From an uncultured virus (IMG/VR IMGVR_UViG_3300025404_000001) (Duplodnaviria; Heunggongvirae; Uroviricota; Caudoviricetes), in IMG/VR virus record IMGVR_UViG_3300025404_000001: a stretch of DNA of 20,000 bases, one strand, 5' to 3'. The notes beneath the pieces are model-generated. The model saw only the letters and a program-made list of their open reading frames with translations, made no database searches and was not told the DNA's origin. The position numbers and the translations under genes are program-made. Within the stretch, counting starts at the first letter, position 1. The number at the start of each line of letters is the position of its first letter. Positions 2,170 to 17,114 of this stretch are shown here, in pieces.

Positions 2170-2706
2170 GTGGCAAACTGGAAGACGTGTTACGACTTCA
2201 TGATGCAGAACGAAGACTCGCGCCGCGAGCACGCGATAGAGCCGGACGCGGGCGGGCAGGCGATCAGCGGGATTAACTCGGCTGCGTTTCCGCTTCAGTT
2301 CGCCAAGATAGCGGCGCTTCCCCAGGCCGAGCGCGGGCCGGAGGTTGAGGCTTTCTACAGCGCGGCGTTCTGGAACCTATGGTTTGACAAGATCGATAGC
2401 GATGAAGTCGCAAAGCGCGTGTTTGACGCTGTGGTAAATATAGGAATCGTGCCGGCGGTGAAGTGCCTGCAGATCGCGATTAACAGCCTAAAGAGGAAAG
2501 ATCCTTCCGGTCTGCCTGCGGAGATGATGATTGATCAGGATGGTCATTGGGGTCCAGATACCGTCTCTCATGCGAACTACGCGCCACCGGACCAGCTCGT
2601 ATCTGCTTTCCGCACCGCCCGAGAGGCCCACTACCGCGCTATCGTCGCCGCGCATCCTGAGAAGGCGGTCTACCTCGACGCTTGGCTGGCGCGGGCGAGG
2701 AAGTAG
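2170..2706 (+). CDS. Endolysin, glycoside hydrolase family 108-like lysozyme with C-terminal peptidoglycan-binding domain
   Basis: N-terminal ..NE..., D.GG...GI, Y...FW, FD.VN.G, LQ.A.N, DG..GP.T and terminal WL.RA motifs; GGAG RBS before GTG. Confidence 0.85.
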   Translation: MANWKTCYDFMMQNEDSRREHAIEPDAGGQAISGINSAAFPLQFAKIAALPQAERGPEVEAFYSAAFWNLWFDKIDSDEVAKRVFDAVVNIGIVPAVKCLQIAINSLKRKDPSGLPAEMMIDQDGHWGPDTVSHANYAPPDQLVSAFRTAREAHYRAIVAAHPEKAVYLDAWLARARK

Positions 2707-2843
2707 ACTATGCGGCTTCTTCGTATGCGTCCATTGAATCAGTAAGGTAGCAGGACCCATTGCCACGCTTCATATTGGCCCTTGCGGCCAAACTGAGCGC
2801 CACACGCCGAAGCCAAATCCTCCGAACCACCATATAGCCCAAA

Positions 2844-3734
2844 TCACTTCTGCTCCTTTGCTAGTTCGGCGCACAACCCAGCGGCAGATGCTTGAGCTTT
2901 GTATTCCGTGTCCAAGGTCGCCCACCACTTTCCGTCAAGCACTACAATCCAAGACTGTCCGCTTTGTTCCACTATCACGCGCTCCACCGGCTTGCGCGGC
3001 GCGGTGAGACGGGCGCAAAGTTCATCTGTTATATCCTGAGAACAATTTATACCCACATGATTCGAGCGTAGTACTTCTTGCAGAGACTCCCGCACAGCAT
3101 CTAGTGTGACCATGCCGGCGGTGGCGACCTTCGTTCTCGGACAAGGATCCGTTTGCGTGTTCTCTATCCGCTTCGCCGCTCGCCGTCCAATCGCCATCTC
3201 AGCGATTGCTATCGGATCCGACAAACCTTGATACTCTCTGTGGTCGCGTATGGCCATTAGGGCGGAGATTAGGGGGTCGAGCATAACTGGTTTAGGTGTC
3301 TCCTGCGGCTCTGGCGCTTCCTCTCCTGTCGCGTAGGCGATTTCCTGGTCAGTGAGCGCGGTTTTCTGCGGGCTGTGTGTTGGGCAGAAGCCTTTGCCGT
3401 CGCTATCACCACACACTGAGCACGGGCCGTTTGTCTGCGGCTGCGCGATGCGGCGGGATAACACGCCGCGTACTGCTTCTCGTATATCACCAATGAGTTG
3501 GTTGCGCGATTCTTTTGGACCCCAGCTACACAAGTCCTGAAAACGATTGATGCGCGCGCATACCTCATCCGTCAGTGTGGTCGGCTGGGGTTGCCGAACT
3601 ACTGTGAAGCTCACCGAGTTAAATTTCTTGTCGGGGAATTCCTTGACCGTCAGCAATTGACGAGGATCGTCGTTTCCTCCCCAATTTACTTGTGCGTCGT
3701 CTGCTCCGTTGAAAATCACTTTAGTAACTTCCAT
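2844..3734 (-). CDS. Hypothetical mosaic phage protein (CxxC...C..H cluster in the middle)
   Basis: Long ORF (track 2844..3752); likely start ATG 3734 after GAGGA; its stop overlaps a downstream GTG. Confidence 0.6.
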   Translation of the reverse strand: MEVTKVIFNGADDAQVNWGGNDDPRQLLTVKEFPDKKFNSVSFTVVRQPQPTTLTDEVCARINRFQDLCSWGPKESRNQLIGDIREAVRGVLSRRIAQPQTNGPCSVCGDSDGKGFCPTHSPQKTALTDQEIAYATGEEAPEPQETPKPVMLDPLISALMAIRDHREYQGLSDPIAIAEMAIGRRAAKRIENTQTDPCPRTKVATAGMVTLDAVRESLQEVLRSNHVGINCSQDITDELCARLTAPRKPVERVIVEQSGQSWIVVLDGKWWATLDTEYKAQASAAGLCAELAKEQK

Positions 3735-4315: not shown

Positions 4316-4692
4316 CCCCGCCACCCCTTCCGTAACTCGGCCAGCCGCGCCTGCTCGTGCACGAGGACTCTAGCTTGCCAGCAGCGCCGCCTGATGCATT
4401 CAACATGATCAAGGCATTCGCGGTGCGATAGTAAATCTTCGAGTTGCTTTATGTTCTCCCCCCCCTGCCGAATCTCTTCCTCGCGCTCGACGGTGAAGTC
4501 GTAGGCGGCTTGCCAACACTCGTTCGCAGTCTCCTTGATGAACCGCTTGCCGGTGCCAAGAAGATACAGGCACCACTCGCCGTCGAAGTCTACTGTCGTC
4601 GGTTGTGTGCTTACCACCCGCTCCCAACGCTCCCGCACATACTCTTCCATCTCGCGCACACTTAGATCGGCCATCACTTCACCGCCCCTCAC
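4312..4692 (-). CDS. Hypothetical phage protein
   Basis: 126 aa ORF coupled on both sides; alternative start ATG 4674. Confidence 0.6.
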   Translation of the reverse strand: MRGGEVMADLSVREMEEYVRERWERVVSTQPTTVDFDGEWCLYLLGTGKRFIKETANECWQAAYDFTVEREEEIRQGGENIKQLEDLLSHRECLDHVECIRRRCWQARVLVHEQARLAELRKGWRG

Positions 4693-4916
4693 TGCTCAAA
4701 CCAGTTCACCAGCCATCCCAACGCAGGCAGGATCACGAACACAACGAACAAACACGCCAACGCGAAAACGCACCGCCGCGCCCAGACCGGCCACGGCCTG
4801 TCCTCGCCCTCCACGCCGTCGTCGCTCAATCCCACCTCGCGCAATGGATCGGGCTCAGTGTCAACGTCATATTCCCTGTGTTGCCACGCTGCGTCTTGAT
4901 GCTCTCTAGGTGTCAT
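4689..4916 (-). CDS. Small membrane protein with C-terminal transmembrane helix
   Basis: CVFALACLFVVFVILPALGWLV hydrophobic stretch after an acidic N-terminus. Confidence 0.55.
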   Translation of the reverse strand: MTPREHQDAAWQHREYDVDTEPDPLREVGLSDDGVEGEDRPWPVWARRCVFALACLFVVFVILPALGWLVNWFEQ

Positions 4917-5127
4917 TGCTTTTCTCTTTCAGCGCCTTGGTCGATAGTTTGACCGTAGGCGCATGAATTGTGTTCATCAACTCAGCCCTTCAATTCTGCG
5001 CTACCACACGTCCTGCCGAAACTGCTGCGGGCGCCTACACCCTTCCAGTGATCGGTAGGCTTGCATCATTTTCCGGCCTGCACCGGCCCGAGTCATAAAC
5101 CTGAATAGTGGACTCGGATGGAAGAAA

Positions 5128-5466
5128 TTACTGGCTAGCCGCTCGATCGCGTGCTGGTATTTGGCCTGGCTTGGCCGGCCACGTTGCTTTTTCTGGTGCA
5201 TTGCGATTGCCCTCGCATAGTGGTTGCTTTGCTCGACCTGCCTGCGCCTGCTCGACCCTGACCCAGCGCAACTCATACCCCAGAGCCCGCGCTACCTTCG
5301 CGCTCATCCGCTGCCCGCCATACAACATTCCCTGCACGTACTCGTGTGTGAAACCTACGCGCCTTGCGAACCTGACCACTCCGCCATACCCCTTGGTAGC
5401 GGCGCAAAGAGCCGTGTGCACTTCACCTTCGTTGACGGCTTCGCGAACGGAATAACCGTGAGGCAT
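5128..5466 (-). CDS. Putative Cro/XRE-like HTH protein
   Basis: GVVRFARRVGFTHEYVQGMLYGGQRMSAKVARALGY resembles an HTH; the C-terminal part looks less protein-like. Confidence 0.55.
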   Translation of the reverse strand: MPHGYSVREAVNEGEVHTALCAATKGYGGVVRFARRVGFTHEYVQGMLYGGQRMSAKVARALGYELRWVRVEQAQAGRAKQPLCEGNRNAPEKATWPAKPGQIPARDRAASQ

Positions 5467-5472
5467 GGCTGG

Positions 5473-5688
5473 TTATATCTCGGATGTGGGTTGTACGGGT
5501 GAGGATGTGAGTGCAGACGACGAGGGCGGCGCGGATGCGGACATGAGCGCAGTCGTCTTACCTGGCTCCCCCGGCTCAAAGTTACCATCCGGGTTATGCT
5601 TGCCTGCATGCCCTCTCTCGCGCATGCAGTAAGTGTTATGACGGTGATTAGAATCGAACCACACCAGTTCCTGACAAAGTTTGAACAT
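5473..5688 (-). CDS. Small hypothetical protein, possible Zn-binding C...GH.G.H motif
   Basis: GGAGG RBS, TAATG coupling; YCMRERGHAGKH. Confidence 0.5.
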   Translation of the reverse strand: MFKLCQELVWFDSNHRHNTYCMRERGHAGKHNPDGNFEPGEPGKTTALMSASAPPSSSALTSSPVQPTSEI

Positions 5689-5903
5689 TACTGTCCCTCC
5701 CAACGTGCGCGTGCCTCAGGTGTGTCGTGAATGAATCCGAGGACGGCTAGAAGCTCGGAGCAAAGGCTACTCTTTTTATCGCCTTGCGCCACAGCGATCA
5801 ATTCTCCCAGTCGCTTGATCTCTGCCTCGCGTTCTGCTTGGAGGTCAACAACCTCTTTGCGCGAGCCGGTGGACATCGTAGTGAACTCAGTTGATGACAG
5901 CAT
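5688..5903 (-). CDS. Small hypothetical protein
   Basis: GGAGG (5912-5916) 8 nt before ATG 5903; helical composition. Confidence 0.55.
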   Translation of the reverse strand: MLSSTEFTTMSTGSRKEVVDLQAEREAEIKRLGELIAVAQGDKKSSLCSELLAVLGFIHDTPEARARWEGQ

Positions 5904-5919
5904 AAAGTGTTCCTCCATT

Positions 5920-6216
5920 TATTCCCGCGGCTCCCGCTTCAAGAACCGGGCCACGCGCGGAAGGTTCGCCAGAACCCTTACTCGTAGCCCGGCTCCTCGT
6001 CGCAGCCGTCAACCTTCCCAAGCGGGGAGTTGAGGTCCGGGCAAGACCTGCGCTCGGAGAGATCGTCGTTCCGCCCCGTGGGCACGCGGAGGGGCTGCGA
6101 AGCCTGTTCGTAAACAGTCTGCCAAAACCACTAGTCCGTTCATCAAGTTTTCCGTTGCCTTCGGTCCGCTCGATAGGTTGTTTACCCGGCTCTGTTATCC
6201 CTAGTGATTCTGACAT
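5920..6216 (-). ncRNA. Candidate structured ncRNA or long structured 5' leader
   Basis: Consecutive stems: 15 bp (6201-6215/6120-6134), UACG hairpin (6101-6120), 8-bp-closed multibranch domain (6093-6100/6000-6007), 13 bp (5983-5995/5943-5955); G-U pairs form only on the minus strand; begins at a predicted TSS. Confidence 0.6.
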
Positions 6217-6222
6217 ACCACC

Positions 6223-6251
6223 AACCTACACCCATTTCTTTCTCTTGTCAA
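6223..6251 (-). promoter_or_regulatory. sigma70-like promoter TTGACA-N17-TAGGTT
   Basis: tgtcaa 6246-6251 and aaccta 6223-6228 on the plus strand, 17-nt spacer. Confidence 0.65.
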
Positions 6252-6291
6252 CCCCCAGAACGTCTTCGATACTGATTTTATTTGCAAACTT

Positions 6292-6486
6292 TCATTTCTT
6301 TGTTCTCGGCCTGACAAATTCCGCGGCGATTCGCCGATCCAATTCGTACTGTTTTACATCCGACACGCAGTACACCACTCGCCGCCCGAGTTTGATATAA
6401 GGGCAGCCTTTCCTTTGGTTCCGCAGATTCGCAAGGTAACCGACGCTGGTGTGCCATCTAGCGGCGAGTTGCTCGGGTGTAATCAT
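6292..6486 (-). CDS. HTH_17/AlpA-type excisionase-like DNA-binding protein
   Basis: MITPEQLAARW..S..YLAN.R....G.PYIKLGRRVVY...DV..Y; ATGA overlap with the primase stop. Confidence 0.85.
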   Translation of the reverse strand: MITPEQLAARWHTSVGYLANLRNQRKGCPYIKLGRRVVYCVSDVKQYELDRRIAAEFVRPRTKK

Positions 6487-8654
6487 TCGGTCCACGGCAC
6501 ACCTCCTCCGATATACTTATCAAACTCTCGTCGCAGGTCGTCGAGTGGAACTTTGAAATGCGCGTAGCTCGTATCGCTTTCCGTCATTCGCGCGCTGATC
6601 TTTCTCTTCTTGAAACTCGGAGCCATCTGGCAGAGTATCTTTCCGAAGTTCACGTCGTTAGGCAACCGGCCTTTGATGTTACGATTGCCAACCCAACGGC
6701 GAAGCGCGTCTCGCAATCTGTTGGTTGGTATTGACTCCGGCCACTCTCCTCCCCAGTCTCCGCCGGCGATCGTGCCTGCTGCTAGGGTGTCGTACCACCA
6801 TTGAGGTACGGGTTCTAAAGATGAGATCTTCTGGGATACGAGGCCAACCGTATTGGGAGCCAGATTCACATCCTGGGTGATTTTGTAATCCATCAGATAA
6901 CGGAGCAGATAAGCCGCTCCTCCCTGTTCGTCGAGACCGAGGCGCATCTCCTCGAAATACTTCCGGTCCTGTTTCCTGCCTTCACCGACCTCAAAAACCG
7001 CCCAACGGCGCTCGTCAGCGCTCGCCGGCACAAGCCATTCCTCATTGCCGATCACAACCACTCTGGTCAAGTTCCGAACCGTATACGACTCCTTACCTTT
7101 CGGCTCGATCAAATGCTCTTCACCTGTCACCAGATCCTTAACTACACCTTCGGCCTCTTTATCTCCGCTCCAGAACGCTTCGTCAAGAATGAACAGCAAT
7201 GTCTTCTGCAAATGCCCGGTAAAGTTGCTGACAAGGTATCGGCGCCGCGCCGTGGTCATGGCGTGACCACCGAGCAGCTTGCTAATCCTTTCAACACAGG
7301 CGTTTTTACCCACACCTTTCCCGCCGCGGAAGACGATCGCCACTAAGGGCTTCTCAAAAGGCCGTTGAATTAAATGAGCGAACCAACAAGTTAACCAATC
7401 GGCCAATTTCTTATCTCGGCCGCAAACATTCTCAAGGACGTGTTCTTTCCATCGCTCAACCATCGGATGATCCCCGGTATCCGCTGGGTTGACGGCAAAA
7501 CCGCGCCACATGTTGAACCAGCGGGCGCCGACATCCAAACCCGGTTCAAAAACCAGACCGTCGAAACTTCGTCTCCCGAGCCACTCCATCCACATCTGAG
7601 CGGTAGGCTTGGTCTTGTCTCCGACCTGCATCTTGTTGGCTGCGTGAAGGTCTAAAAACGACTGCTTGCTCATCAAATGAAACGCGTAGTCGCCCTTACG
7701 ATCAGTGGTCTCCCACAAAATGTTTCCGGTACCTCCAGCGAAGACGAACGCAAAACTCTGATTAAGTTTATCGAAAGGGTGGAGTTTGTCCTCGATTGAT
7801 TTGACTTCTTCAATCGGAGGAAAAACCGCCTCTGGAGCGGCAATGCCCGCGGGATCTTTTCCATACTTGAACGCGTTGCGAACTTTTGTTTCGAGTTCTT
7901 CCTGGCTCCAAGGAGGAGAACACCGTTCGTTCCATGAAGTCATCAGCTCAAGAGTCTGGTCGACGTCGCATCCGAAGTCTTTCAAATGTGCGGCAACTTT
8001 GTATGTCTCGGCATCTCCCCCCTGGCCTTCGGTTGCCGTGGGAGCGTAAGATGCAAGCCACGCGGCGGCGCGCTGCGCGGCCCGGCCGGGCTCGATACCA
8101 GTAAGAGGCTTAGAAGCGGTGCTAACGTGATTGCGGGCGGCGCCAAGCCGTCGAACAAGCCACTCAGGAGCTGGTGCGATGTGGGCTTTGTGAGAGATGA
8201 TGTACTCTTTGCCGTCAATGTTTGATCCCGGCCCCAAAACATATCCGCCTCTACTGCGGATGTCTAGTCCGTTCCCCAAGGTGTCGGTCCCTTGCCTCAA
8301 CGCTTTGGGAACCCGATAGTAGAGATGCCGGCCCTTCGACGGCGTGGTAATTTCAAAAGTCTCCGGCAGCTCGAAGCCATCCATCTCCAATTTAAGGAGG
8401 CTGATATCACCTCTCTTTTTGGCTTTCACATCGACATCCACCACCACCAGCGCCTCATTTTCTCCAAAATGAGTTGTGGAGATGCCAACATTTTTCGGCT
8501 GGCCGTTCCACCAAGCTTCGACTTGCGCTGGGTCTGTAGTCGCGCGGTTGGGAAAGTCTTTAATTGCTGGAAGCTTGGAATTTACAGCGCACGGAAAAAC
8601 ATGGAGGCCTCCAGCAGCCAGGCGGAGCGCGAATTCTGATTGAGGAGTTGACAC
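6483..8654 (-). CDS. Bifunctional DNA primase/polymerase (Prim-Pol) fused to a D5/DUF5906-like NTPase helicase domain
   Basis: VFPC...K.P, N.GI.T, VVDVD, TPSKGRHLYY, DIRSRGGYVLGPGS; Walker A GGKGVGKN, Walker B ILDE, GN and DERRW motifs. Confidence 0.93.
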   Translation of the reverse strand: MSTPQSEFALRLAAGGLHVFPCAVNSKLPAIKDFPNRATTDPAQVEAWWNGQPKNVGISTTHFGENEALVVVDVDVKAKKRGDISLLKLEMDGFELPETFEITTPSKGRHLYYRVPKALRQGTDTLGNGLDIRSRGGYVLGPGSNIDGKEYIISHKAHIAPAPEWLVRRLGAARNHVSTASKPLTGIEPGRAAQRAAAWLASYAPTATEGQGGDAETYKVAAHLKDFGCDVDQTLELMTSWNERCSPPWSQEELETKVRNAFKYGKDPAGIAAPEAVFPPIEEVKSIEDKLHPFDKLNQSFAFVFAGGTGNILWETTDRKGDYAFHLMSKQSFLDLHAANKMQVGDKTKPTAQMWMEWLGRRSFDGLVFEPGLDVGARWFNMWRGFAVNPADTGDHPMVERWKEHVLENVCGRDKKLADWLTCWFAHLIQRPFEKPLVAIVFRGGKGVGKNACVERISKLLGGHAMTTARRRYLVSNFTGHLQKTLLFILDEAFWSGDKEAEGVVKDLVTGEEHLIEPKGKESYTVRNLTRVVVIGNEEWLVPASADERRWAVFEVGEGRKQDRKYFEEMRLGLDEQGGAAYLLRYLMDYKITQDVNLAPNTVGLVSQKISSLEPVPQWWYDTLAAGTIAGGDWGGEWPESIPTNRLRDALRRWVGNRNIKGRLPNDVNFGKILCQMAPSFKKRKISARMTESDTSYAHFKVPLDDLRREFDKYIGGGVPWTE

Positions 8655-16654: not shown

Positions 16655-16950
16655 GTAAGACCTAGAATCATTCGGGGTAGATTCTGGGTCGATTCTAGGT
16701 AGTTTGTTCTTTAGAATCAAAGACATGCGAAAAGTTCTAAGTAAACCCCGTTTTTGTTCGAATTGCTGGAGGAAAAACAGGTGCACAGCTTTTGTATAAT
16801 GTATACAATGTATTACAGTGTATTACAAAGTACAATTGTGTAAAGTTCTTCTATATATTTTGATATAATCTCTTCTCTAAGAATAAAGAGAATCTAAAGT
16901 AAATTGCTGATTCTAAAGATGTAATTTGTTCTAAGTAAAAGAGTTAATTC
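16655..16950. other. AT-rich, repeat-dense intergenic region (candidate origin or recombination site)
   Basis: IR acctagaatc 16660-16669 / 16691-16700; IR ctttagaatca 16709-16719 / 16908-16918; DR gttctaagtaaa at 16734 and 16928; tgtattaca-like repeats 16793-16827. Confidence 0.55.
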
Positions 16951-17114
16951 TCAGTGGCCCTTGGAATGAGATTTCGCCTCTCCCGCGCATGGTGATTGAT
17001 TGCGTTTATTTTCAATAGTTTGCGTGGTTTAATGTGAAGCAGAGTTTCCCGTCCCTCCAGCGCCTGCGGAGCTGACCAGGATCACGAGTACCGAGAGGAT
17101 GAAGACTAGGTCGC

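What the first reader, a model, noticed from the sequence alone, without database searches (positions are those of the whole stretch)
5920..6251. Promoter-driven ~300-nt multi-domain structured RNA candidate with a possible long-range pseudoknot
Seen: a TTGACA-N17-TAGGTT promoter on the minus strand puts the TSS at ~6216, and the transcript folds almost end to end. Domain 1 is closed by a 15-bp stem (UGUCAGAAUCACUAG/CUAGUGGUUUUGGCA, 3 G-U) and has an inner AUCGAG/CUUGAU stem. A UACG-capped hairpin follows (6101-6120). Next is a ~100-nt multibranch domain closed by UCGCAGCC/GGCUGCGA with at least 3 hairpins. Then comes a 13-bp stem (GAGCCGGGCUACG/CGUGGCCCGGUUC) with a nested 7-bp hairpin, and finally the GGAGG RBS of the next gene. 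CCGGGUAA in domain 1 (6182-6189) is complementary to UUGCCCGG in a domain-3 hairpin (6037-6044). GAGCCGGG occurs twice, which would allow alternative pairing. The G-U pairs form only on the transcribed strand. Inference: this is a phage ncRNA or cis-regulatory leader (antitermination or switch element) controlling the accessory operon. I do not recognise it as a known family.
Basis: partly seen in the sequence, partly recalled or inferred. Interest (0 to 1): 0.8.

Follow-up and report, generated by a model that had tools for sequence, protein, structure and literature searches.

The report
New conserved phage structured RNA element
A stretch of phage DNA between a conserved promoter and a row of small genes encodes a folded RNA of a family not yet catalogued, kept in shape by matching mutations in six related phages, but its job is still unknown.

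Summary
In the window alone the fold is only modestly better than shuffles (z -2.2).

The decisive evidence comes from five other phage contigs that carry a homologous core of about 160-245 nt. The core is a three-way junction (P1 GCAGCC/GGCUGC, P2, P3) followed by a long hairpin P4.
- 25 of 46 pairs show compensatory double changes, and 95% of cells are paired against 73% in shuffles.
- Swapping stem arms between homologues destroys the pairing.
- The gene strand folds better than its complement in 6 of 6.
- The overlapping 109-aa ORF is not conserved.
- Rfam has no match.
- The promoter recurs at the same place in 6 of 12 relatives.
- Metatranscriptome contigs from three runs cover 5841-6200 and stop short of the promoter.

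The element always sits upstream of the same small-gene operon (a Lar-like or a 76-aa protein, then an HTH), yet relatives keep these genes without it. Function is unresolved. A cis-acting leader is my best guess (~0.45) and a stable trans-acting RNA is the main rival.

The parts
6223..6251 (-). Sigma-70-type promoter-like site: TTGACA (6251-6246), 17-nt spacer, TAGGTT (6228-6223). The predicted start is near 6216.
   Evidence: Sequence. The same TTGACA-N17/18-TAnnnT motif follows the HTH_17 gene in 6 of 12 sequences examined (window, L016, L006, L003, L004, L274). RNA-library contigs end at 6200, 6188 and 6187, and none crosses the promoter. The consensus scan did not list it because the -10 is weak.
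6120..6215 (-). It is specific to the window in sequence.
   Evidence: MFE fold. No sequence homologue. L274 and L286 have non-homologous upstream domains closed by stems of 11 or more bp at the same place.
6104..6117 (-). Not conserved.
   Evidence: MFE fold. Absent from the homologues' flanks.
5930..6106 (-). Conserved core of the RNA family (match to covariance model R1).
   Evidence: Covariance-model (CM) scores in bits: window 187.6, L024 213.9, L016 61.2, L274 43.2, L286 27.4, L004 23.2. Covariation. Arm-swap test.
6000..6100 (-). Three-way junction. P1 pairs 6100-6093 with 6007-6000 and has the invariant GCAGCC/GGCUGC. P2 is the hairpin 6092-6071 with loop UGCCCA at 6084-6079. P3 is the hairpin 6065-6010 with the conserved unpaired CUCAACUCCCC at 6034-6024.
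   Evidence: P1 never varies in sequence (GC, CG, AU, GC, CG in 5 of 5). P2 has 5 of 7 pairs and outer P3 has 4 of 5 pairs with double changes.
5941..5997 (-). P4 long hairpin (15 bp, an internal loop, then 7 bp) with loop UGGC at 5971-5968. UCUGGCGA is invariant in 5 of 6 homologues and GGCGA in 6 of 6.
   Evidence: In helices 5 and 6, 14 of 21 pairs have double changes. The native arm is the best partner in 6 of 6 rows and columns, at -37.0 against -20.5 kcal/mol.
5931..5945 (-). Conserved pyrimidine-rich 3' flank ending in UGA(A/U) (UUCUUGAAG here).
   Evidence: Seen by eye in 5 of 6 homologues. Meaning unknown.
5688..5916 (-). Shine-Dalgarno GGAGG (5916-5912), the likely start ATG at 5903, and the first downstream gene (71-76 aa, ending ...GFIHDTPEARARW).
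   Evidence: Homologues follow the element in L286 and L024.
5128..5466 (-). HTH-like gene with the G[FWY]ELRWV motif. It lies downstream of the element in all six phages.
   Evidence: The only Pfam hit is a sub-threshold YdaS match.
6292..6495 (-). Upstream HTH_17 (excisionase/AlpA-like) gene, the last gene of the replication block.
   Evidence: Pfam HTH_17 E 1.9e-4, below the cutoff, and phrog_2528. Conserved in 15 relatives.
5887..6216 (-). 109-aa ORF that overlaps the element. Judged not to be a gene.
   Evidence: No family match. No tblastn hit in the homologues. L016 has stops in all six frames of the core. Window against L024 has indels of 1, 2, 1 and 4 nt, and substitutions of 20/58, 16/58 and 24/57 by codon position.

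Best explanation
SHOWN. The window is part of an uncultured phage record of 40,454 bases that CheckV rates about half complete. Between its replication genes and a row of small genes lies a transcribed, strand-specific, non-coding structured RNA. Its conserved core (window 6106-5930, minus strand) has these parts:
- a three-way junction whose closing helix P1 has an invariant sequence (GCAGCC/GGCUGC);
- two variable hairpins, P2 (loop YGCCC) and P3 (unpaired CUYNACUC in 5 of 6);
- a long hairpin P4 whose tip carries GGCGA in all six homologues.
The stems are kept by compensatory mutations, while the junction and loop nucleotides stay fixed. The core is always co-oriented with, and upstream of, the same operon: a Lar-type zinc-ribbon protein or a 76-aa protein, then an HTH protein with an ELRWV motif. 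This holds in two phage lineages that have different replication genes.

INFERRED (my commitment, about 0.45). The RNA acts in cis, as part of the operon transcript. It folds into a compact body, perhaps with the P4 tip GGCG docked on the P2 loop YGCC. Its fixed loops would be the binding surface for a trans factor, either a protein or the transcribing or translating machinery. That factor would set how much of the downstream anti-restriction/regulator operon is expressed, through transcript survival or elongation rather than by a simple terminator or Shine-Dalgarno hairpin, since neither is present.

In the window the transcript would start at about 6216, from the conserved promoter, and the window-specific 5' stem-closed domain would protect the 5' end.
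For: Homology and structure:
- Six distinct homologues were found with model R1.
- 95.2% of cells are paired against 73.4% in shuffles. 25 of 46 pairs have double changes. 0 of 500 shuffles reach any of the five measures. Slid controls give 34-43% paired.
- RNAalifold recovers the same helices, with 29 of 53 pairs compensatory.
- In the alignment-free arm-swap test, the native arrangement is the single best of 720 permutations for each of P2, P3 and P4.
- Dinucleotide-shuffle z-scores of the cores run from -1.9 to -6.3, and the sense strand is more stable than the antisense strand in 6 of 6.

Not coding.

Transcription:
- The promoter is conserved in 6 of 12 sequences examined.
- 8 metatranscriptomic runs from 7 studies hold part of 5400-6600.
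- In the four runs that were laid, contigs identical to the window cover 5861-6188, 5841-6020, 5999-6200 and 5938-6187. Nothing covers 6201-7500, the promoter, HTH_17 and primase region.

Cis link:
- The element is upstream of the same operon in 6 of 6, although the upstream neighbour differs. It follows the promoter in the window and L274, other small genes in L004 and L016, and a 264-270-aa gene in L024 and L286.
- The contigs of X2 and X3 run from the element into the next gene.
- No terminator follows the element.
Against: - No mechanism is demonstrated.
- Relatives carry the same downstream genes without the element (the L013 group, L008, L273, L281, L283 and L003). It is therefore dispensable for their expression.
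- The distance to the next start codon is not fixed. It is roughly 35-65 nt in five homologues and 170 nt or more in L024.
- No conserved pairing with the Shine-Dalgarno region was found, and native pairs are no better than swapped ones.
- Terminator-like sites downstream are no more frequent than in shuffles (8 against 6.8 +/- 2.7), so an antitermination role has nothing obvious to act on.
- One RNA run (X1) covers only 5479-5892, the downstream genes without the element.
- Contigs cannot show strand, ends or abundance.
- The sample is small (six sequences), and the covariation alignment was fitted to the model.
Confidence: 0.45

Rival explanations
1. An independent, stable non-coding RNA. 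It would be cut out of the operon transcript, or would simply outlive it, and would act in trans. One example is a decoy or sponge for a host factor, within a locus that also carries an anti-restriction (Lar-type) gene.
For: - Presence is facultative among relatives that keep the neighbouring genes. There is one copy per phage record.
- The RNA is shared by two lineages with different replication modules.
- Invariant loops on variable stems suit recognition by a partner.
- RNA-library contigs pile up on the element: three of the four laid runs cover it, but not the flanking primase/HTH_17 region. In X3 the 5999-6200 contig has depth 15 against 5 for 5841-6020.
- Both flanks are U-rich and single-stranded.
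- Lar_restr_allev genes lie next to it in 3 of 6.
Against: - No terminator or other defined 3' end was found.
- No promoter of its own in 4 of 6.
- The contigs of X2 and X3 continue into the downstream gene.
- No target or partner is known.
- Contig depth is not a measure of abundance.
Confidence: 0.3
2. An RNA processing module. It would be either a new self-cleaving ribozyme or a substrate for host RNase III or RNase E that splits the long early transcript, with P4 resembling phage RNase III sites.
For: - It is intercistronic in L004, L016, L024 and L286.
- P4 is a 20-25-bp hairpin interrupted by internal loops.
- Junction and loop nucleotides are conserved.
- In X3 the two contigs overlap at 5999-6020 but were not merged, and they have different depths.
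Against: - No known ribozyme family is matched, even at E up to 5-10.
- A plain RNase III site needs no three-way junction.
- Nothing here tests cleavage.
- X2 has one contig across the whole element, 5861-6188.
Confidence: 0.1
3. A DNA-level element: single-stranded DNA hairpins or protein-binding inverted repeats, such as a replication, priming or recombination site.
For: - It lies next to the primase gene in the window.
- P1 is an invariant inverted repeat.
- Inverted repeats covary in DNA hairpins too, and the arm-swap test cannot tell RNA from DNA.
Against: - In L024 and L286 it is not near any homologue of this primase.
- It is always co-oriented with transcription.
- The sense strand is more stable in 6 of 6, with 5-10 G-U pairs per core.
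- It is covered by RNA-library contigs while the neighbouring DNA is not.
- It is not AT-rich (GC 0.54-0.56).
Confidence: 0.05
4. A small protein-coding gene (the 109-aa ORF 6216-5887), or chance folding of GC-rich DNA.
For: - The frame is open in the window and its ATG sits at the predicted start.
- One sense frame is also open through the core in L024, L274 and L004.
- The window fold alone is only z -2.2.
Against: - No Pfam or PHROG hit, and no tblastn hit in the homologues.
- There are stops in all six frames in L016, frame-breaking indels and no third-position bias.
- The covariation and arm-swap results exclude chance.
Confidence: 0.03

Closest known systems
HK022 put RNA (cis-acting RNA that makes RNA polymerase resist pausing and termination)
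   Same: It is a phage-encoded structured RNA transcribed just downstream of an early promoter, on the operon transcript, and it acts without a terminator of its own. PMC9378689 was seen only as a search listing and abstract. The abstract says put is a cis element that suppresses pausing and termination of early phage genes.
   Different: From recall, put is two adjacent stem-loops of about 70 nt. This element is a three-way junction plus a long hairpin, 160-245 nt in all. It is promoter-proximal in only 2 of 6 phages. No excess of terminators lies downstream. There is no sequence similarity to test.
Lambda nut / rrn leader antitermination sites (boxA plus boxB hairpin)
   Same: A hairpin is followed by a conserved single-stranded pyrimidine-rich stretch. 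In L016 this stretch (UCUUUGAAACAAUU) resembles boxA as I recall it.
   Different: The resemblance is by eye, against a consensus recalled from memory, and is good in 1 of 6 only. Part of the stretch is paired within P4. No N-like protein is known here. The boxA papers (PMC3177189, PMC2800207) were seen as listings only.
Orphan phage-associated structured RNA motifs (Rfam motifs from comparative genomics; the 8,495 IMG/VR 'csRNAs' of PMC10690425)
   Same: The kind of object and of evidence is the same: an intergenic, covarying structure in uncultured phage contigs, consistently upstream of particular genes, with unknown function.
   Different: It matches none of 4,227 Rfam models. According to passages read, the published csRNAs are 29-151 nt long (mean 67), which is shorter than this core. 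A search of the held supplements for Lar terms found nothing, but 3 files could not be searched. Overlap with that catalogue is therefore not excluded.
Translational or transcriptional riboswitches and protein-binding leaders
   Same: It lies in a 5' leader or intergenic position. A junction with fixed nucleotides on variable helices looks like an aptamer.
   Different: No expression platform was found. There is no terminator and no conserved anti-Shine-Dalgarno pairing. The downstream genes are regulators or anti-restriction genes, not metabolic ones.
T7-type RNase III processing hairpins in phage early transcripts
   Same: P4 is a long, imperfect hairpin between cistrons of an early operon. 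The comparison is from recall.
   Different: P4 is always coupled to a conserved three-way junction and has an invariant tip sequence. Cleavage was not tested.

Membership tests
Any Rfam 15 family | Score at or above the family's gathering threshold | tested here: not met
   There were 0 matches in the 20-kb window. At E up to 10, the 1-kb region gives 3 hits of 13.5-15 bits against thresholds of 49-53. There were 0 matches at E up to 5 in five homologue loci totalling 19,896 bases.
Protein-coding gene (109-aa ORF) | A frame kept open in homologues, indels in multiples of three, a third-position excess of substitutions, and detectable protein similarity | tested here: not met
   L016 has stops in all 6 frames. 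Indels are 1, 2, 1 and 4 nt. Substitutions by codon position are 20/58, 16/58 and 24/57. No tblastn hit. No Pfam or PHROG family.
Conserved structured RNA (generic criterion) | Helices supported by compensatory changes beyond controls | tested here: met
   25 of 46 pairs have double changes and 0 of 500 shuffles reach the observed values. 29 of 53 pairs are compensatory by RNAalifold. The native arms are the best of 720 permutations for P2, P3 and P4.
Conserved structured RNA (generic criterion) | Transcribed, on the predicted strand | tested here: inconclusive
   RNA-library contigs cover 5841-6200 in 3 of the 4 runs laid, and none covers 6201-7500. Contigs carry no strand or ends, and DNA carry-over is not formally excluded. 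The strand is inferred from the sense/antisense energy asymmetry in 6 of 6 and from gene orientation.
Riboswitch / cis switch | An expression platform: an intrinsic terminator or Shine-Dalgarno-sequestering alternative pairing | tested here: not met
   No terminator-like site at or after the element. The best core-to-Shine-Dalgarno duplexes fall at different places in each homologue and are no better than swapped pairs.
Riboswitch / cis switch | Specific ligand binding | not testable with these tools
   This needs in-line probing or a similar assay.
HK022 put-like processive antitermination RNA | Two-hairpin architecture of about 70 nt directly after an early promoter (recalled) | tested here: not met
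   The architecture here is a three-way junction plus a hairpin, 157-243 nt long. It is promoter-proximal in the window and L274 only.
HK022 put-like processive antitermination RNA | Makes RNA polymerase read through downstream terminators | not testable with these tools
   The only finding is that terminator-like sites downstream are not enriched.
Nut-type site (boxA/boxB) | A conserved boxA next to a small boxB hairpin | tested here: inconclusive
   By eye, one of six 3' flanks (L016) is boxA-like. The consensus is recalled, and no model was run.

The most novel reading that the evidence does not exclude
The core is a new class of self-contained functional RNA carried by phages. The candidates are a catalytic RNA, a ligand-sensing RNA, a polymerase-modifying RNA, or a decoy that disarms a host defence. 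It would fold through a P2-loop/P4-loop contact (GGCG:YGCC, extended to GGGGCG:CGCCCC in L286) and would move between phage lineages together with an anti-restriction/regulator gene cassette.
Probability: 0.2. Interest if true: 0.85.

Novelty: new variant of a known kind. Interest (0 to 1): 0.62.

Why it matters
Conserved structured RNAs in phages with good covariation are still rare, and most of them have unknown functions. This one has an unusually clean signature for so few sequences. It has a conserved promoter in front of it and support from environmental RNA libraries. It is also consistently linked to an operon that includes a Lar-type restriction-alleviation gene and a small HTH regulator.

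If it controls that operon, it adds an RNA layer to how temperate or soil phages time their early anti-defence and regulatory genes. If it acts in trans, it could be an RNA-based counter-defence or host-manipulation factor. In either case the core is small (about 180 nt) and well enough defined to be tested directly in vitro and in reporter constructs.

Tried and rejected
- **Direct DNA similarity.** blastn against 50,697 phage records found nothing. blastn against 18 related loci found only the HTH_17 gene and one 25-nt hit, which led to L004.
- **Exact-pattern scans.**
  - The 20-nt P4 pattern found only L004's contig.
  - Two composite patterns in viral contigs gave L024 plus chance hits L021-L023 and L027.
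  - Of these, only L054 and L087 (identical to L004) and L121 (the same record length and score as L024) are real. L126 and L137 score 12 bits, E 0.06-0.08, which I read as chance. 0 of the 120 genome loci match.
- **Protein-guided retrieval.** The downstream 76-aa protein gave none. The Lar alignment gave no new locus. The 264-aa protein gave L293, which lacks the element.
- **Cultured relatives.** Ralstonia phages RpY1 and C22 (primase 60.6% identical) have no model match in the 16,126 bases fetched.
- **Shine-Dalgarno sequestration.** No conserved site was found.
Both are real in the window, but domain 1 is absent from the homologues, so they cannot be tested.
- **Alignment quality.** MAFFT alignments of the homologues were poor in P3 and P4. 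The model also misplaces L004's P1 3' arm, so L004 was left out of the pair counts.
- **Faulty scripts.** The first two arm-swap scripts were faulty (an empty half gave 1e5, or a whole hairpin ended up in one half) and were replaced.
- **Earlier findings.** The look-ups returned nothing.
- **Published catalogue.** The supplements of PMC10690425 held no Lar term, and 3 files were not searchable.
- **Parts without RNA cover.** No contig covers 6201-7500 or 4736-5478 in the four laid runs. This is used only as context for the covered part.

Full report
**Context.** The window is bases 20406-40405 of an uncultured virus record of 40,454 bases.
- Its minus strand carries a replication block: an SNF2 helicase, a DUF2800/PD-(D/E)XK exonuclease, an Enc34-type ssDNA-binding protein, a family-A DNA polymerase and a Prim-Pol/DUF5906 primase at 8654-6483. 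A small HTH_17 gene follows at 6495-6292.
- Next comes a gap of about 370 nt that holds the finding, and then a row of small unknown genes.
- The closest cultured relatives by primase are Ralstonia phages C22 and RpY1, at 60.6% identity.

**The observation.**
- The minimum-energy fold of 6216-5920 reproduces the description almost stem for stem.
- On its own the fold is only moderately unusual: z -2.18, with 5 of 200 shuffles as good, against z +0.55 for the other strand.
- The promoter has a perfect -35, but its -10 is too weak for the consensus scan to list.

**Homologues.**
- blastn found no similarity beyond the HTH_17 gene in 18 related viral loci, apart from a 25-nt match in L004.
- That match sits in a 276-nt stretch that folds at z -6.5 into the same architecture with different stem sequences.
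- nhmmer then found L016. Motif scans found L024. Retrieval through the downstream HTH protein found L274 and L286.
- Covariance model R1 was built from the window and L024. It scores the window at 187.6 bits, L024 at 213.9, L016 at 61.2, L274 at 43.2, L286 at 27.4 and L004 at 23.2.
- All other pattern hits in viral, metagenome and genome contigs are negative, or are copies of L004 or L024.
- There is one copy per phage record. Two near-complete relatives (the records of L003 and L009) lack it.

**What is conserved.**
- P1 (GCAGCC/GGCUGC) never varies.
- P2 is a hairpin whose loop holds YGCCC in 6 of 6.
- P3 is one or more hairpins, with an unpaired CUYNACUC stretch in 5 of 6 (not in L274).
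- A short purine-rich linker follows.
- P4 is a long hairpin whose tip reads UCUGGCGA in 5 of 6 and contains GGCGA in 6 of 6.
- A pyrimidine-rich flank ends in UGA(A/U) in 5 of 6.
- L004 has an extra 17-bp hairpin between P1 and P4.
- The window's domains 1 and 2 have no sequence homologue. L274 and L286 do have unrelated upstream domains closed by stems of 11 or more bp.

**Tests of structure.**
- On the model-derived alignment of five sequences, 95.2% of cells are standard pairs against 73.4% in shuffles. 25 of 46 pairs have changes on both sides. No shuffle out of 500 reaches any of the five measures, and sliding the partners drops pairing to 34-43%. L004 was left out of this count because the model misaligns it.
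- RNAalifold on the same alignment predicts the same helices, with 29 of 53 pairs compensatory.
- That alignment is fitted to the model, so I added an alignment-free control. I paired the 5' half of each hairpin with the 3' half from every homologue. The native combination is the single best of 720 permutations for each of P2, P3 and P4. For P4 the native partner is best in 6 of 6 rows and columns, at -37.0 against -20.5 +/- 3.9 kcal/mol.
- Core z-scores against dinucleotide shuffles are -1.9 (window), -3.7, -4.5, -4.9, -5.4 and -6.3. The gene strand is more stable than its complement in 6 of 6.

**Coding rival.**
- The 109-aa ORF has no family and no tblastn match in the homologues.
- L016 has stop codons in all six frames inside the core.
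- The window and L024 differ by indels of 1, 2, 1 and 4 nt.
- Their substitutions are spread 20/58, 16/58 and 24/57 over the codon positions.
- It is not a gene.

**Transcription.**
- The motif TTGACA-N17/18-TAnnnT follows the HTH_17 gene in the window, L016, L006, L003, L004 and L274. That is 6 of 12 sequences examined, and L002's contig ends just after a TTGACA. The promoter is therefore a feature of this phage group, with or without the RNA behind it.
- Eight metatranscriptomic runs from seven studies hold part of 5400-6600.
- Four runs were laid on 4500-7500. Contigs identical to the window cover 5861-6188 (X2), 5841-6020 and 5999-6200 (X3) and 5938-6187 (X4).
- X1 covers only 5479-5892, and X2 and X4 also cover about 4520-4735.
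- Nothing covers 6201-7500.
- Contigs cannot give strand, ends or level, and the runs were chosen for holding this stretch. Even so, the covered part ends 16-29 nt inside the predicted start in three runs, and the adjacent genes are bare. This fits a transcript that begins at the promoter, and it is hard to explain by contaminating DNA.

**Genomic logic.**
- In all six phages the element is co-oriented with its neighbours.
- It lies upstream of one of two genes. One is a Lar_restr_allev zinc-ribbon gene in L004, L016 and L274 (33-39 bits against a cutoff of 28.6). The other is a 59-76-aa protein ending in IHxxP...W, in the window, L286 and L024.
- An HTH-like gene with a G[FWY]ELRWV motif follows.
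- The upstream neighbour differs between phages.
- The L024 and L286 records (87% and 93% complete) have no homologue of the window's primase. The RNA and its downstream genes are therefore shared across two phage lineages.
- Other relatives carry the same downstream genes with no element.

**Mechanism.**
- No terminator follows the element, and terminator-like sites downstream are at shuffle level.
- No conserved pairing with the ribosome-binding site exists.
- A classic riboswitch or attenuator platform is therefore missing, and an antiterminator has no evident target.
- What remains is a compact fold with fixed loops.
- I note, as inference only, that GGCG at the P4 tip can pair with YGCC in the P2 loop in all six. 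In L286 both loops are enlarged and the complementarity grows to GGGGCG:CGCCCC.
- My best reading (0.45) is a cis-acting leader or intercistronic domain that recruits a factor and tunes expression or stability of the operon transcript.
- The main rival (0.30) is a stable RNA acting in trans. Its facultative presence and its prominence in RNA libraries favour that view.
- A processing or ribozyme role (0.10) and a DNA-level role (0.05) are less likely. Coding or chance (0.03) is essentially excluded.

**Known families.**
- Rfam 15 has no match for the window or for five homologue loci.
- HK022 put, nut/boxA sites, riboswitch leaders and RNase III hairpins share position or single features, but each fails at least one defining feature that could be tested.
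- A 2023 catalogue of IMG/VR structured-RNA candidates describes motifs of 29-151 nt (passages read). The supplements I could search hold no Lar-linked entry, but three files were unreadable. Prior listing of a fragment such as P4 therefore cannot be excluded.

**Verdict.** This is a real, apparently uncatalogued structured RNA family of narrow known distribution: six distinct sequences from uncultured phage contigs, with the window's sequence also seen in wetland RNA libraries. The structure is well supported and the function is open.

Noticed in passing
window 6223-6251 and the matching places in L016, L006, L003, L004 and L274: A promoter-like motif (TTGACA, a 17-18-nt spacer, often GTGATAnnGT) is conserved right after the HTH_17 gene in several related phages. 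It is preceded by a conserved GTTTGCAAATA box that overlaps the gene's end. It looks like a dedicated promoter for the small-gene operon.
   Followed up: partly
L274 1985-2098, L286 2030-2080, window 6120-6215: Three of the six phages have a non-homologous domain closed by a stem of 11-15 bp directly 5' of the conserved core. In the window and L274 the 3' arm is preceded by ACGGAC. It could be an analogous 5'-protecting module.
   Followed up: partly
window 5128-5466 (-) and homologues (alignment A5): This is a small HTH-like protein family with an invariant G-[FWY]-ELRWV C-terminal motif. It has no Pfam family, only a sub-threshold YdaS hit. It is the one gene always found downstream of the RNA.
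   Followed up: partly
L004 8202-8414, L016 7366-7602, L274 2287-2496, L281 2309-2488: Lar-type restriction-alleviation zinc-ribbon genes sit in the same operon slot that the window fills with an unrelated 76-aa gene. The slot looks like an exchangeable early or anti-defence position.
   Followed up: partly
window 16700-17010: An AT-rich gap (GC 0.38) lies between divergent-looking gene blocks. It has a 12-nt direct repeat (GTTCTAAGTAAA, twice, 194 nt apart) and a 12-nt perfect inverted repeat 188 nt apart. It may be a regulatory or origin region.
   Followed up: no
window 2706-2844: Plus-strand genes (a cro/cI-like HTH at 655-1221 and an endolysin-like gene at 2170-2706) converge here on the long minus-strand operon.
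   Followed up: no
window 4517-4735: Two of the four RNA runs (X2, X4) also have contigs here, inside the small-gene row, with two base differences from the window (G>A at 4552, C>A at 4610). A close variant of the phage is present in those samples.
   Followed up: no
L024 1680-1700 and L274 2250-2262: Simple runs follow P4 in two homologues: (GA)n in L024 and A9 in L274. Their meaning is unknown.
   Followed up: no
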